Part shown: positions 4,380-57,064 of the stretch, piece after piece
Position numbering within the stretch: the first letter of the stretch is position 1
How the letters are laid out: each line of letters opens with the position of its first letter
Source of the DNA: Octopus vulgaris
Taxonomy: Eukaryota
DNA: 64,000 nt
NCBI GenBank assembly: GCA_951406725.2
Contig: OX597822.1
Span: forward strand, 108,128,001-108,192,000
Direction: 5' to 3'
Program-made: the position numbers and the translations under genes
The notes under the pieces: model-generated
What the model was told of the DNA's origin: nothing
Databases searched by the model: none
What the model saw: only the letters and a program-made list of their open reading frames with translations

Positions 4380-4440
<61 letters not shown>

Positions 4441-4454
4441 TATTTACATGAACA

Positions 4455-4610
4455 TTTTAAAAGTTCATTCTGTTGGTCATCAATAGACAACTGTTATATT
4501 ATGACGTAATGAATGTTCCTCTTCCCCTTCACAGTTATAATATCATTAACCCGCCATTCCATTTCAAAACACAATGGTTATCACATACTTGAATATTAAT
4601 GAGAAACACT
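4455..4610. repeat. Diverged local duplication (partner at about 6131-6248)
   Basis: tgttggtcatcaata(g/a)acaa(c/t)tgttatattatgacgta(a/g)tga(a/g)tgtt occurs at both sites. Confidence 0.75.
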
Positions 4611-4846
4611 GGATTATTGACGTGAAATTTAAAATCGAAATCAAATAAAACTTACTTTACTTTGGAAAATTTGTGTGCAGCGGGAAGAGTAAAAAAAGTC
4701 GTGATTATGGATTGTACTTTGCATAACATGCTACAATGTAAGAGAAGGCTTATTTTCTTCATTGATTTTACTCTGTATATGTAAGTTGTGATAATCAAAA
4801 ATTGATAACTTTTAGGTATATTTTTCTGTAAAATAATATTAGATTA

Positions 4847-5303
4847 GTATACTAGCCATCTCAATATGGCTAACCACTAAGGGTGGGTGTTACTGTAGCT
4901 TTTAGCCCCAGGAGATCATCGTCTCGTTCAGATATTTATTATTGCTTGCAGGCAGTTTTTCGAAATCAGTGACGGTGGCTCCTGGGAAAACCATTAAATA
5001 GATATTTGCAAACACGTCTCTCTTCATCGAAAACCGGTGATTACCGTACGTTGACAAGAAGCAAATACCTCGAAACTGCAGTCCGTGCGTATCACTTAGG
5101 TTTGTGAGAGAGGGATGACCTCCCTTTGCAAATATCATAAGGGCACAGAATGTGTGCCTACAGCCAGCTGAAGACGATGATCTCCTGGGGCTAAAAGCTA
5201 CAGTAACATCCACCCTTAGTGGTTAGCCATATTGAGATGGCTAGTATACTTTACGTTGTCGAGCAGTTACTGTTTACCCCCCGTTCATAGATTTATTATT
5301 GCT
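4847..5303 (+). mobile_element. Non-autonomous PLE/retrozyme-like element with 79-bp inverted segment, HHR and 13-bp TSD
   Basis: Inverted repeat 4846-4924 / 5172-5250 with one mismatch. Terminal direct repeat cgttca..atttattattgctt at about 4925-4947 and 5282-5303. Flanking taatattagatta at 4834-4846 and 5304-5316. Confidence 0.8.
5045..5089 (+). ncRNA. Type I hammerhead ribozyme, U3-A8 core variant
   Basis: cgtacg TTGACAA gaagcaaatacctc GAAA ctgcag TC cgtgcg: stem I 6 bp, palindromic stem III ACUGCAGU, GUC cleavage triplet. Stem II is imperfect. Confidence 0.75.
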
Positions 5304-5804
5304 TAATATTAGATTAATTTCGACATAATCTTTGCAGCTTCTGTGAATCTTATTAGATTATATATTTGCATCTATGATCTATAACTCTACTGAGTACTTT
5401 AAATTATTTCCATAAAAGATATAATACCGCCAGTTGACGGTAACTATCCCGAGGATTACGGTTTCGTTATCAGATGCATCTGAACGCTTTTTACAGTAGA
5501 ATTTGTTCATTTACTGTTCGGAAGATACTTTCTGATGTAATAGGACACATTTTGCCTTCATAATACGGATTAGAATCTGGCAATTTCTGAGTTTTGTCTC
5601 ACTTTATTTAACCATCTGCAGGTATCTATTATAATATATATATATATATGTATATATGTTGAGCATTTTGTGCTCACGAAACTCACAAATGGTTATTACG
5701 ATGCACACCCACTCACTCATATCTACATATATAGATACAAGAAACATACATGCATACATATATATGTGCATGTGTATGTTTGTGTCTTAATATATATATA
5801 TGTC

Positions 5805-26654: not shown

Positions 26655-27020
26655 TTAATATTCCTGGCCCAGGGTGTTCAAACTTTGTCTAAATTTTTTG
26701 ATGAAATAAAGTTCTTTATTTTGGCGTTGCGTGAAGGTTACGCTCTCACTGAATTTGTAAAGTGGGTAAGTTGTAAATTTCGGATTTACATTTGCAGAAC
26801 ATCTATCTATGTGTCCGATGACCGGTATTTTCCGGTATTCAGGGTTTCTAATTTGTGATTTATGCACCGCCATCCTGTTACGTAAGCTTTTTTTTGTATG
26901 GCCTATATACTGCCTATTGCAGCCTGCGCATGTTAAGACGTAAATTAAGTTTTCTGATACACAGGTGAAGTTTGCTCTAATGGTGACGACGTGCTTCCAG
27001 TTTCCTTCTACCAAGTCCAT
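26655..27020 (-). pseudogene. PLE GIY-YIG endonuclease domain (5'-truncated)
   Basis: FTCVSENLIYVLTCAGCNRQYIGHTKKSLRNRMAVH...RQNKELYFIKKF..LN has the GIY-YIG signature with CxxC typical of PLEs. Confidence 0.9.
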
Positions 27021-52043: not shown

Positions 52044-52049
<6 letters not shown>

Positions 52050-52674
52050 TATAAGCAAGGTCTACCGAAAGTTTTTCTAAAGCCAATATACTGAAATCCA
52101 CGTTTAATCCACTTGCTACAGAAAGTTGAACTGAAATTCGGGCAACTATACCTTTGGAACACTTAAATTCCGTTATCTCAATATTGAATCAATTTCGGAA
52201 TTAACACCATAAGTGTCGTTCGTCTTCAGTTAAGCTTACGAGAGAATATAAGTGAGATACTCATATGTGCCCCTGGAAAACAGCGGAAGCGAATAACACA
52301 AGCACATCTGAGTAACCCCGTTATATCCCAAAATAAATGTTCTTAGGTTAAGTCTCAGAACAACCTGTTGACTTGCCGCCGCCACATATTGTAGTGGTTA
52401 CAAGTCCCCCTGCAGCAAGCAGCAATTAGTGTACTGCTATTAAAAGGAATGTAGCCTTTTTCTCTACAGAAAAAAACTCCATCAGGAATTGTGGCAGTAT
52501 ATTAAAAGAACCTTTACGGTTAAATATTATAAATATAAGTATATTGGCTTTAGAAAAATAGCCCTTGCTTATAAGATATTTATAATTTTTAACCGTAAAG
52601 GTTCTTTTAATGTACTGCCACAATTCCTGATGGAGTTTTTTTCTGTAGAGAAAAAGGCTACATCCCTTTTAATA

Positions 52675-52675
<1 letters not shown>
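52044..52675 (-). mobile_element. PLE/retrozyme-like element: about 490-nt monomer plus inverted segment spanning the monomer junction
   Basis: 100-bp inverted arms at 52437-52536 and 52576-52675; the loop is the reverse complement of 52044-52092; (TA)n on both sides. Confidence 0.82.
52177..52234 (-). ncRNA. Type I hammerhead ribozyme motif
   Basis: cttaa CTGAAGA cgaacgacac ttat ggtgttaattcc GAAA ttgattcaa TA ttgag; the closing pair of stem II is C/C. Confidence 0.72.
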
Positions 52676-52717
<42 letters not shown>

Positions 52718-53671
52718 GTGTGTGTGTGTGTGTGTGTGTATATTTGTGTAAATGTGTATAGAAAAATATATCAACTGAATAAAGTTAGCACATGGTCTGA
52801 TTTTCATTTGTTTTATTATTGGACTTAAAACAAAATTTAAAACAAAATACGATACTGAAGTGTGTTAAACATTAAAAAAATATAATGATCATCAAATTCT
52901 TCCTTTTTACCCCTTTTCAAAGACTCCAACTAATTGAATTTTTGTAATACGATTTTGACCAAACAGTATGAAGCTTAAAGCCACGGTTTGCGGGCGCACA
53001 GATATTACTGGCATAGACTCCATTTTTATTTCAACCCATCGGCTTGCGATTTACATGTAATGGTATTATGTGTGAGCAAACTTAGTTGGTTTCGATTGTT
53101 TTATTTCAATCGTTGGGAGTCTTCTATAATTTGTATATTATAATATATTGAAGGTATTTTTTTTTATTCCACATCATCAACTGGGTGTTATATTATTGTT
53201 GTTATTTCCATTCAGAACAGGTTTGAACATTTTAGGAGAAACGTTTTTCTTTTATCTTTCTTCCAATCGCACTTGTGTTATGTAGTATGTGGAAAGGAAA
53301 AATTAGAAACATTTTTCTGATCATATATTTCTATATGTTCACTCAATGGAATTTGGCGAACATTAGCGTTCCAGATCTGTTATCTGTGGACTTGTAAGCG
53401 TTCCGATAAGGCATTCCCTATCTCGCCATATGTAGTTACTCGCAATTAAGGAAATCAAATTTCTGCTTTGGCAGTTTTTCTGCATTTGTGAAAATCTGTT
53501 AATTTCTTTCTTCTTACGGATCTACAAGTATGCAAGTATGGACACGTTCCACATTTGTTATAATTACACTTGAATACTGTAATTGTTTTATCATGTTTGT
53601 TCCTGTTGGATTTTGCCTTTGTTGGTGGTTTTTATAGATTACGTGTTTGCTTCTGGCTTTGGTGTTTGGTT

Positions 53672-54122
53672 CTTTTATTTTTTTATTCTTTTACTTGTTT
53701 CAGTCGTTTTCTTGCGGCCATACTGGAGCACCATCTTTAGTAGAAAAAATCTACCTCAGGACTTATTGTTTGTACGCCTAGTACTTATTTTATCGGTTTT
53801 TTGTCGAACCGGTAAGTTACGATGACGTAAACACACTATCATCGTTTGTCAAGTGATGATGGGTATACAAACATAGACACAAACAACAAATAAGTACATA
53901 CACACACACACACATACACACACATATATATATATATGTATCTATATATATATATACACGAAGGGCTTCTTTTAGTTTCTGTCTACCAAATCCAATCACA
54001 ACGCATTAGTGGGTCCGAGGTTATAGTAGGAGACACTTGCCCAAGGTGCGAAGCAGGGGAATGAACCCGGAACCATGTCGTTGGGAAGCAAGTTTCTTAC
54101 CACGCAACCAATCCTGCGCCTA
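53672..54122 (-). mobile_element. SINE family A
   Basis: Matches 3972-4373. Confidence 0.88.
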
Positions 54123-54533
54123 TTAGTTATGTTTTTGAAATTTTTCACTTTGTTTCATGATTGGCAAATTTGTTTTGATGATGTTTAAAATGCTTTAGTA
54201 ATGTCGGTTATGTGTTACTAAAAATGGTATTGTTTTCCGTTGAGGGGTTCGTCTTTCTCGTGTTCCTGTAAGTTGTTCTATAAGTATCTGTTTTGCTCGT
54301 TGTATGCTATTGTCTATAATTAGGAGAGGGTATTTGGATCATTTACTATAGTAGAAAGTCGATCATCTATTATCGTAAAAATTTTCCTTTGTCGACAGTA
54401 CGGGATATTTCATTTTGTGTGTGTTGCGTGGCATGATTTGAAATGTAGGTACTGATGTGTATCTAAAATTTTTGTAATAAATATCAGTTATGATTCTGGT
54501 GTTGATTTTAATTACCATTATGGTATGAAATGT

Positions 54534-56377: not shown

Positions 56378-56435
<58 letters not shown>

Positions 56436-56439
<4 letters not shown>

Positions 56440-56965
56440 AAAATATAAGGAATGGCCATAATAGGATATTCGACTCAATAGAAAGAGCAGCCAAACTCAA
56501 ACCGCTAATAGTTGCAATTCTGAAATTGAAAGAGAAATAAAAACGTTTACCCCTTCATCTCTGGACGATGCATAGTTTCGGCAAACCTTAGTAAACAAAT
56601 TAATTAAATTAAATTAAATGTATTTACAACTGGCGTGCCTCGTCAGCAGAGAAGCCAAGGACGAACATATATCCACGAAGCGATGGTAAGGAAGCCTCAA
56701 GTCTATATGCTATAAATTTTCAAAATCTACCGCAATCGCGCGGTCTTCTTAGCAGCAAACACAAACTGCTGATTCAACTTCAAAAGTAGCCAAAAAATCA
56801 TCAACTAACAAATACAAGGGTGGCAAAAAATTCTTGGTCCAGAGATGAAGGGGTAAAAGTTTTTATTTCTCTTTCAATTACAGAATTGCAACTATTAGCG
56901 GTTTGAGTTTGGTTGCTCTTTCTAGTGAGTCGAATGTCCTTTTATGGCCATTCCTTATATTTGTG
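56436..56965 (-). mobile_element. PLE/retrozyme-like element with about 130-bp inverted repeat starting at the HHR cleavage triplet
   Basis: Arms at 56436-56566 and 56837-56965; 3' end abuts (TA)n. Confidence 0.85.
56558..56652 (-). ncRNA. Canonical type I hammerhead ribozyme (predicted cut between 56564 and 56563)
   Basis: tctctg CTGACGA ggca..gtaaata..tgtttac..tgcc GAAA ctatgcatcg TC cagaga. Confidence 0.9.
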
Positions 56966-57064
56966 AATGTATATTATGTAGTCTTTGACTATCTTTTCTT
57001 TCTCACTGGACCGGTGGTGGCGGAGAATGTTTTCTAGAATTTTTTGTTATCCTTGTACTTGTTA

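What the first reader, a model, noticed from the sequence alone, without database searches (positions are those of the whole stretch)
4834..5316. Complete insertion with 13-bp TSD, 79-bp 5' inversion, terminal redundancy and a U3-A8 hammerhead
Seen: TSD taatattagatta on both sides; the inverted repeat is not terminal on the right, so this is not a simple MITE; about 22 nt of direct redundancy define an about 357-nt unit. The HHR core is UUGACAA rather than CUGANGA. Known: C3-G8 form a tertiary pair, and U3-A8 is a compensatory swap that strict searches miss. Inference: same architecture as the elements at 52044 and 56436, in a third unrelated family.
Basis: partly seen in the sequence, partly recalled or inferred. 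Interest (0 to 1): 0.75.

Follow-up and report, generated by a model that had tools for sequence, protein, structure and literature searches.

The report
Decayed retrozyme copy, Penelope-type insertion
This is one damaged copy of an abundant 357-base, protein-free jumping repeat that carries a predicted self-cutting RNA with an already published core variant and was likely pasted in by a Penelope-type enzyme, so it is a new member of a known kind.

Summary
In detail: a 13-bp duplication, a 78-79-nt inverted arm, a 357-nt unit and a type I hammerhead with core UUGACAA. The element belongs to a family with at least 844 copies of one 29-mer and arrays of about ten units. It is best filed as an animal non-LTR retrozyme, likely mobilised by a Penelope-like element (PLE). 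The architecture is standard PLE anatomy: two head-to-head arms whose outer ends sit at two fixed points about 47 nt apart (33 of 61 sampled insertions). Autonomous PLEs in this genome show the same two ends. The 23-nt redundancy is only where this arm stopped. U3-A8 is a lineage trait (43 of 47 copies), backed by covariation in helices I-III, and is already published for PLE hammerheads. This copy has a near-private G5060A change that breaks helix II and is probably inactive. What remains of interest is a series of amplified lineages: C3-G8 with C10.1·A11.1, U3-A8 with G10.1-C11.1, and a young U3·G8/GUU lineage. Cleavage, circles, the helper PLE and the empty site are untested. The scan noted such elements, U3-A8 included, many times on other DNA of this genome.

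The parts
4834..4846 (.). Left target-site duplication, 13 bp
   Evidence: Exact repeat of 5304-5316
4847..4924 (-). Short arm: 5'-truncated inverted copy (unit positions 248-325) whose 3' end lies at the family's first fixed end
   Evidence: 78 of 79 identical to 5172-5250; 55 of 115 sampled arms end at unit 325-336
4925..5304 (+). Long arm: 380 nt, 1.06 units, whose 3' end lies at the family's second fixed end
   Evidence: 4441 first-look candidates, many 89-95% identical over the full length; 40 of 115 arms end at unit 17-27
4925..4947 (+). First copy of the 23-nt overlap; marks where this arm was 5'-truncated after slightly more than one unit
   Evidence: Spacing 357 to 5282-5304; 5' ends scatter in other copies
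5036..5096 (+). Predicted type I hammerhead: helix I with an internal loop, 4-bp helix II with CAAAUA loop, palindromic helix III; predicted cut 5083/5084
   Evidence: Pair counts across 21 copies; dimer fold of an intact natural copy
5051..5057 (+). Core UUGACAA (U3 = 5051, A8 = 5056)
   Evidence: 109 exact family matches; 482 with any helix II
5060..5060 (+). Near-private G-to-A change that breaks the third pair of helix II
   Evidence: A in 2 of 47 copies, this one included; A in 1 of 42
5258..5304 (+). About 47-nt 'tail' between the two fixed 3' ends, present on one arm only
   Evidence: End modes at unit 330/333 and 22/23; tail described for PLEs in PMC8557442
5304..5316 (.). Right target-site duplication (1-nt overlap with the element)

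Best explanation
This is a damaged copy of a non-coding 357-nt tandem-repeat family carrying a predicted type I hammerhead (an animal non-LTR retrozyme), likely inserted by the reverse transcriptase and GIY-YIG endonuclease of a Penelope-like element. Shown: the family, its arrays, the two fixed 3' ends, the scattered 5' ends, the AT-rich or (TA)n targets with duplications mostly of 10-15 bp, and hammerhead covariation. Inferred: (1) source arrays are transcribed on the + strand; (2) the hammerhead cuts at GUC, most efficiently as a dimer through the ACUGCAGU palindrome, and monomers may be ligated into circles; (3) the PLE endonuclease makes a staggered cut of about 13 bp; (4) each freed DNA end primes reverse transcription, one at unit position about 333 and one about 47 nt further on; (5) the two truncated cDNAs join head to head. 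The 380-nt arm crosses the cut site, so its template was a circle or an uncut multimer. U3-A8 was inherited from a source lineage whose hammerhead fold stayed under selection; this copy was then probably crippled by G5060A.
For: Family: 4441 first-look candidates and a roughly 10-unit array at C4:13.62 Mb; 844 exact matches to a 29-mer. Of 61 insertions sampled without regard to the hammerhead, 33 are head to head with one end at each fixed point, 12 are other head-to-head forms, 14 are single arms and 2 complex; 40 of 115 arms cross the cut site and 15 exceed one unit. Among those 33, 14 have a TSD of 9 nt or more outside (TA)n and 15 sit in (TA)n (hand count). Autonomous RT plus GIY-YIG elements are abundant and young. 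They show two 3' ends about 30-40 nt apart and head-to-head arms, as PMC8557442 describes. Hammerhead: 95.3% of cells paired against 89.3% shuffled, 5 pairs with two-sided changes, slid controls 19-49% paired. Helix III stays a palindrome in three forms. An intact natural copy folds as a dimer with 8-bp helix III, -44.9 against 2 x -17.6 kcal/mol. Circular monomer z is -2.7 for this copy and -5.5 for an array unit. Mussel retrozymes of 350-390 bp cleave and circularise (PMC7229834).
Against: No cleavage, transcript or circle is shown. 5' ends do not pile up at the cut site (2 of 115 within 5 nt; about 3.5 expected if uniform). No helper PLE shares sequence with the unit: none among 30 GIY-YIG loci or 30 further PLE loci; the two matches among 14 extended loci are separate insertions of 71-77% relatives. 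Only 150 of 6136 GIY-YIG candidates were scored. Lineages with weak-looking hammerheads spread well: C10.1·A11.1 and U4C in many of 370 matches, U3·G8 with GUU in the youngest lineage, so cleavage may be dispensable. Arms of one insertion are only slightly more alike than arms of different insertions (2.4 against 3.2 differences per 60 nt, 22 insertions), and L017 has arms from two subfamilies, so a single-circle template is not shown. In the 2026 preprint 8 of 9 predicted Xenopus dimers did not cleave.
Confidence: 0.8

Rival explanations
1. The copies are simply 5'-truncated ends (pseudo-LTRs) of an autonomous Penelope-like element that was not sampled.
For: Inverted truncated copies, partial tandems and tails are the normal form of PLE insertions; hammerheads, U3-A8 included, lie in PLE terminal repeats; 24 of 57 Xenopus retrozyme families match known transposons, 21 of the 22 being PLEs.
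Against: Long arms run back into the same 357-nt unit rather than into coding sequence; a pure array of about 10 units exists; among 180 family loci only L101 had a non-repeat PLE protein match, about 900 nt from the element.
Confidence: 0.08
2. The family is a PLE-mobilised repeat in which the hammerhead is a weak or regulated passenger; copies come from uncut read-through transcripts of arrays and no circle is needed.
For: No excess of 5' ends at the cut site and 40 of 115 arms cross it; lineages with non-canonical pairs amplified; PLE hammerheads cleave poorly in vitro; Naiad PLEs spread without canonical hammerheads.
Against: Two-sided changes in helices I and II and kept palindromes within the U3-A8 lineages show selection on the fold. 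This rival differs from the best reading only in the cleavage and circle steps.
Confidence: 0.1
3. The element is a MITE or foldback DNA transposon, or a LINE-type insertion with an ordinary twin-priming inversion.
For: A long near-perfect inverted repeat and a 13-bp duplication; in this copy the inverted arm starts only 32 nt before the long arm's 5' end, which twin priming would allow.
Against: Inverted arms start at fixed unit positions wherever the other arm begins, lengths vary from about 30 to over 600 nt, and tandem arrays occur; there is no poly(A) tail and no fixed terminal inverted repeat.
Confidence: 0.02

Closest known systems
Animal non-LTR retrozymes (Cervera and de la Pena 2020, PMC7229834; Li, Clavereau and Pollet 2026, bioRxiv 10.64898/2026.07.22.740005)
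   Same: Non-coding tandem unit of 350-390 bp as in mussel, one type I hammerhead per unit, GC under 50%, TSD longer than 4 bp, monomers to multimers, self-paired circular fold, PLEs in the same genome.
   Different: U3-A8 core rather than C3-G8; two-armed insertions with two fixed ends are not described in the parts of these papers that I read; cleavage and circles are not shown here; no matching PLE terminal repeat was found.
Endonuclease-bearing Penelope-like elements (Neptune, Penelope/Poseidon, Naiad; Craig et al. 2021, PMC8557442)
   Same: 5'-truncated copies in partial tandem, an inverted truncated copy next to them, a tail on one end, bias to (TA)n.
   Different: No ORF; the tail is about 47 nt against 30-40 bp; clear TSDs at many non-microsatellite sites.
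U3-A8 hammerheads (Perreault et al. 2011, PMC3088659; Schistosoma Cercyon PLE min-hammerheads, Cervera and de la Pena 2014, PMC4209133)
   Same: The same compensatory swap of the 3-8 pair, reported natural and active in vitro; about 1,300 hits in one animal genome.
   Different: Here it sits in a canonical-size hammerhead (6-bp helix I, 4-bp helix II, palindromic helix III) of a non-coding repeat, beside sister lineages with C3-G8 and U3·G8.

Membership tests
Animal non-LTR retrozyme | Short tandem unit of 150-450 bp occurring as monomers to multimers | tested here: met
   357-nt unit; array periods 355-357
Animal non-LTR retrozyme | One type I hammerhead per unit | tested here: met
   Motif in each array unit; covariation; helix II damaged in this copy
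Animal non-LTR retrozyme | No protein-coding capacity and no LTRs | tested here: met
   Arms consist of the unit only; no PLE protein match over the element; PBS and PPT were not searched for
Animal non-LTR retrozyme | TSD longer than 4 bp when present | tested here: met
   13 bp here; 10-18 bp in 14 of 33 two-armed insertions
Animal non-LTR retrozyme | Self-cleavage of the transcript | not testable with these tools
   Only folds were computed
Animal non-LTR retrozyme | Accumulation as circular RNA | tested here: inconclusive
   Family contigs occur in four runs only guessed to be RNA; contigs cannot tell circles from tandems
Penelope-like element insertion (works like) | Inverted 5'-truncated copy plus a tail on one end | tested here: met
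   33 of 61 insertions; the same two ends in autonomous PLEs
Autonomous Penelope-like element | RT plus GIY-YIG open reading frame within the element | tested here: not met
   470-nt insertion without ORF homology
Non-autonomous partner of a named PLE family | Sequence shared with that PLE's terminal repeat | tested here: inconclusive
   None found in 74 PLE loci; most PLE candidates were not scored
MITE | Terminal inverted repeats on both ends and uniform length | tested here: not met
   Asymmetric ends, variable arm lengths, tandems
Type I hammerhead ribozyme | Core with paired 3-8 and three helices around an NUH site | tested here: met
   U3-A8, helices I-III and GUC in the family; one helix II pair broken in this copy
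Retro-insertion with TSD | Empty site with a single copy of the duplicated word | tested here: inconclusive
   No contig of four runs joined across the element; the left flank was not covered

The most novel reading that the evidence does not exclude
The family preserves a natural fitness walk of a ribozyme core inside one genome. Source RNAs went from C3-G8 with a C10.1·A11.1 mismatch, to U3-A8 with G10.1-C11.1 (seven hammerhead changes and none in the adjacent 153 nt), to a young U3·G8 lineage with a GUU site. Each amplified as a parasite of Penelope enzymes that prime both cut DNA ends on the RNA. Selection would favour tuned, sub-maximal cleavage that keeps circles or multimers intact for reverse transcription, and hammerhead modules may be swapped between RNAs by template switching.
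Probability: 0.25. Interest if true: 0.6.

Novelty: new member of a known kind. Interest (0 to 1): 0.27.

Why it matters
As a single copy it matters little: it is decayed, and both headline features are published. The family is useful in two ways. Its insertion scars support the proposed but little-shown route by which Penelope-like enzymes move animal retrozymes. Its lineages offer natural variants of the hammerhead 3-8 and 10.1-11.1 pairs, so one can test directly whether cleavage rate governs a retrozyme's success. It also shows that strict CUGANGA searches and Rfam miss hundreds of copies (482 matches; no Rfam hit on this damaged copy).

Tried and rejected
Rfam found no hammerhead in the element; the whole-window scan listed U6 and microsatellite noise among the 150 of 197 rows shown.
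Folding the motif alone gave no signal over shuffles.
Empty site: four DNA or unlabelled runs gave no joint across the element and no cover of 4400-4776; one contig spans 5282-5384 with too few element letters to count as bridging.
Expression: no RNA holder listed; four runs guessed to be RNA hold family contigs. Neither is used as evidence.
Helper PLE: L217 first looked like one (77% match downstream of an RT-GIY-YIG frame), but 39 other copies of that PLE end about 600 nt before the match, so it is a separate insertion.
Cleavage footprint in 5' ends: none.
CpG decay as the origin of A8: rejected, since in the GGGA family CA outnumbers TG about 58 to 2 among the 100 listed of 115 matches (hand count).
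U3·G8 as a surviving intermediate on the way to U3-A8: not supported. The U3·G8 copies are scattered among C3-G8 copies, and the GGGA U3·G8 lineage looks derived from U3-A8.
A body-only tree did not separate U3-A8 from its nearest C3-G8 lineage (31 of 55 branches open).
The lower change rate at core positions was biased by pattern selection; the less biased value (1.1% against 3.1%, 34 copies) is only a hint.
Literature searches without a useful hit; one search listed nothing that I opened.
Lunse 2017 and Przybilski and Hammann 2007 are not held.
Scan look-ups by sequence and by words found nothing.

Full report
Observation. The window lies on contig C9 of a 2.8-Gb animal assembly. Notes of this scan call the host an octopus; I did not test that. 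The 13-mer TAATATTAGATTA flanks the element exactly at 4834-4846 and 5304-5316. Positions 4846-4924 are the reverse complement of 5172-5250 with one difference, and 4925-4947 recurs at 5282-5304 with two differences, 357 nt on. A type I hammerhead can be drawn on + at 5036-5096 with core UUGACAA and a predicted cut at 5083/5084. Rfam does not see it and it folds no better than shuffles. Below, 'unit position' means window position minus 4924.

Family. The long arm has 4441 first-look candidates, of which 40 were scored; many are 89-95% identical over the full length, and they include an array of about ten units. A 29-mer from the 3' part has 844 exact matches. The arms consist of the unit only. 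Among 180 family loci only L101 had a PLE protein match outside simple repeats, about 900 nt away.

Architecture. I took 70 loci from the first 100 listed of the 844 matches (all on C1-C2) and dropped 9 as repeats of the same insertion. Of the 61 left, 33 are two arms joined head to head with one 3' end at unit 325-336 and the other at 17-27, on either side; 12 are other head-to-head forms, 14 single arms and 2 complex. Of 115 arms, 55 end at the first point (modes 330 and 333) and 40 at the second (modes 22 and 23). The 5' ends scatter, with 2 of 115 near the cut site; 40 arms cross the site and 15 exceed one unit. The window copy is therefore typical. Its 'non-terminal' inverted repeat reflects the roughly 47-nt tail on one arm, and its 23-nt redundancy is only where a 380-nt arm stopped. 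Of the 33 two-armed insertions, 14 have a TSD of 9 nt or more outside (TA)n, 15 lie in (TA)n, 2 have 7-8 nt and 2 have none (hand count); mismatched flanks gave 45 of 1056.

Link to Penelope-like elements. PMC8557442 (passages seen) describes partial tandems, an inverted 5'-truncated copy, a 30-40-bp tail on one end and (TA)n bias as hallmarks of PLEs. This genome holds thousands of GIY-YIG candidates (150 of 6136 scored), with RT plus GIY-YIG frames. One family with a 781-residue frame ends at either of two points about 36 nt apart. A second family shows head-to-head arms, and in L217 and L237 one arm carries a tail. I found no PLE whose terminal repeat is homologous to the unit among 74 loci. 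The one candidate proved to be a separate insertion. The helper class is inferred; the helper family is unknown.

Hammerhead. A pattern with positions 3, 4, 7 and 8 free matched 518 times: 109 U3-A8, 370 C3-G8, 20 U3-G8 and 19 others. This pattern misses other U3-A8 lineages; a looser one gives 482. Among 47 copies with G10.1 and C7 that were not picked by any hammerhead pattern (some were picked by likeness to this copy), 43 keep U3-A8, 36 pair helix II fully, 17 keep all tested features and 2 share A5060. The window copy differs from its subfamily majority at 8 of 221 sites, a usual age (median 3.2%), and one of them breaks helix II. On 21 copies that I chose to represent lineages (the window plus two per lineage), 95.3% of cells pair against 89.3% shuffled. 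Five pairs change on both sides: 3-8, two in helix II and two in helix I (one of these in a single copy). Slid controls give 19-49%. Shared descent inflates such counts. Helix III stays self-complementary as ACUGCAGU, ACUAUAGU or ACUAGU. An intact natural copy folds as a dimer with both helices II formed, whereas this copy loses helix II.

Lineages. C3-G8 lineages carry C10.1·A11.1, and U3-A8 lineages carry G10.1-C11.1. The nearest pair differ at 7 of 61 hammerhead sites and 0 of 153 body sites (Fisher p 1.2e-4). The groups were defined by hammerhead letters, so only the zero is free of circularity. A sister family 70-83% identical has U3-A8 with GGGA/UCCC. Its youngest lineage (1.6% from majority) has U3·G8 and GUU in 12 of 12 aligned copies, and about 33 of 100 listed of 115 matches are of this type. 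A body-only tree of 58 rows groups the one outgroup with C3-G8 lineages, weakly (84/77; 31 of 55 branches open), so the order C3-G8, U3-A8, U3·G8 is suggested but not shown.

Mechanism. Shown: the family, the ends, the targets and the covariation. Inferred: transcription of arrays; dimer-assisted cleavage; perhaps circularisation; a staggered cut by a PLE endonuclease; priming of both DNA ends at two fixed sites; head-to-head joining of two truncated cDNAs. Arms that cross the cut site need a circle or an uncut multimer, and my data cannot tell which. Arms within an insertion are slightly more alike than between insertions (2.4 against 3.2 differences per 60 nt; 22 of the 33 could be compared). 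L017 mixes subfamilies, so two templates occur at least sometimes.

Neighbours. The elements at 52044 and 56436 share no significant sequence with this one or with each other. They have inverted arms, belong to families of their own and carry C3-G8 hammerhead motifs.

What is known. Non-LTR retrozymes: PMC7229834 (passages and parts 2-3 of 6 read) and bioRxiv 10.64898/2026.07.22.740005 (parts 1-3 of 5), which argues for a PLE origin and found cleavage in 1 of 9 tested dimers. U3-A8: natural and active in vitro according to PMC3088659 (passages), and about 1,300 hits in Schistosoma PLE hammerheads in PMC4209133 (parts 1-2 of 4). Dimer cleavage: PMC6765202 and PMC7761336 (passages). Lunse 2017 and Przybilski and Hammann 2007 were not available; I saw titles only. 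No supplements were seen, and those of PMC4209133 and PMC7229834 could already list this family. Searches showed no paper on this family or on the C·A pair, in a library that lacks most subscription journals. The hammerhead numbering is recalled. This scan has 249 notes fitting hammerhead/retrozyme/Penelope words in this genome, several on 358-364-nt U3-A8 elements. They are unchecked notes, seen after my first reading was formed, and not independent evidence.

Verdict. A real feature and a new member of a known kind; this copy is probably inactive. Interest 0.27. The boldest reading left open is a natural, testable series of ribozyme cores tuned for retrotransposition (probability 0.25, interest 0.6 if true).

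Noticed in passing
window 52044-52675: Another two-armed element (about 490-nt arm on -, about 1009 first-look candidates) with a CUGAAGA hammerhead-like motif near 52230 on -. It is 69% similar over 118 nt to an inverted repeat beside a PLE copy (L192/L212).
   Followed up: partly
window 56429-56974: A third two-armed element (1650 first-look candidates) with a canonical CUGACGA hammerhead on -, a roughly 50-nt loop II and a palindromic helix III that this copy has broken.
   Followed up: partly
window 26658-27014 (-) and about 53238-54335 (-): 5'-truncated remnants of Penelope-like elements (GIY-YIG region; 82-87% and 33-59% protein identity to PLE frames of this genome).
   Followed up: no
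window 21110-21214 (+): U6 snRNA copy, 101 bits; gene or retrocopy not examined.
   Followed up: no
window about 56319 (-); L215 near 1018 (-): A further CCGAAGA hammerhead-like motif with long helix II, in a repeat seen in both places.
   Followed up: no
L187, L192, L211-L216; L217, L225-L254: Two young autonomous PLE families: one with a 781-residue open frame in many copies, one with copies 99-100% identical. Both end in (TA)n and show an optional 30-40-nt tail. The linker CxxxxCxxC suggests the Neptune clade (recalled, not tested).
   Followed up: partly
L255-L284: A sister family, 70-83% identical to the unit, with the same two fixed ends, helix II GGGA/UCCC and a 6-nt palindrome. Its youngest lineage (1.6% from majority) has U3·G8 and a GUU site in 12 of 12 aligned copies.
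   Followed up: yes
L017, L018, L019: Single insertions whose arms or tandem units come from different subfamilies, suggesting two templates or template switching.
   Followed up: partly
L061-L090 and listing: The most numerous lineages in the pattern count carry a C·A mismatch at the base of helix II and often U4C; a paper search for this pair found nothing relevant.
   Followed up: partly
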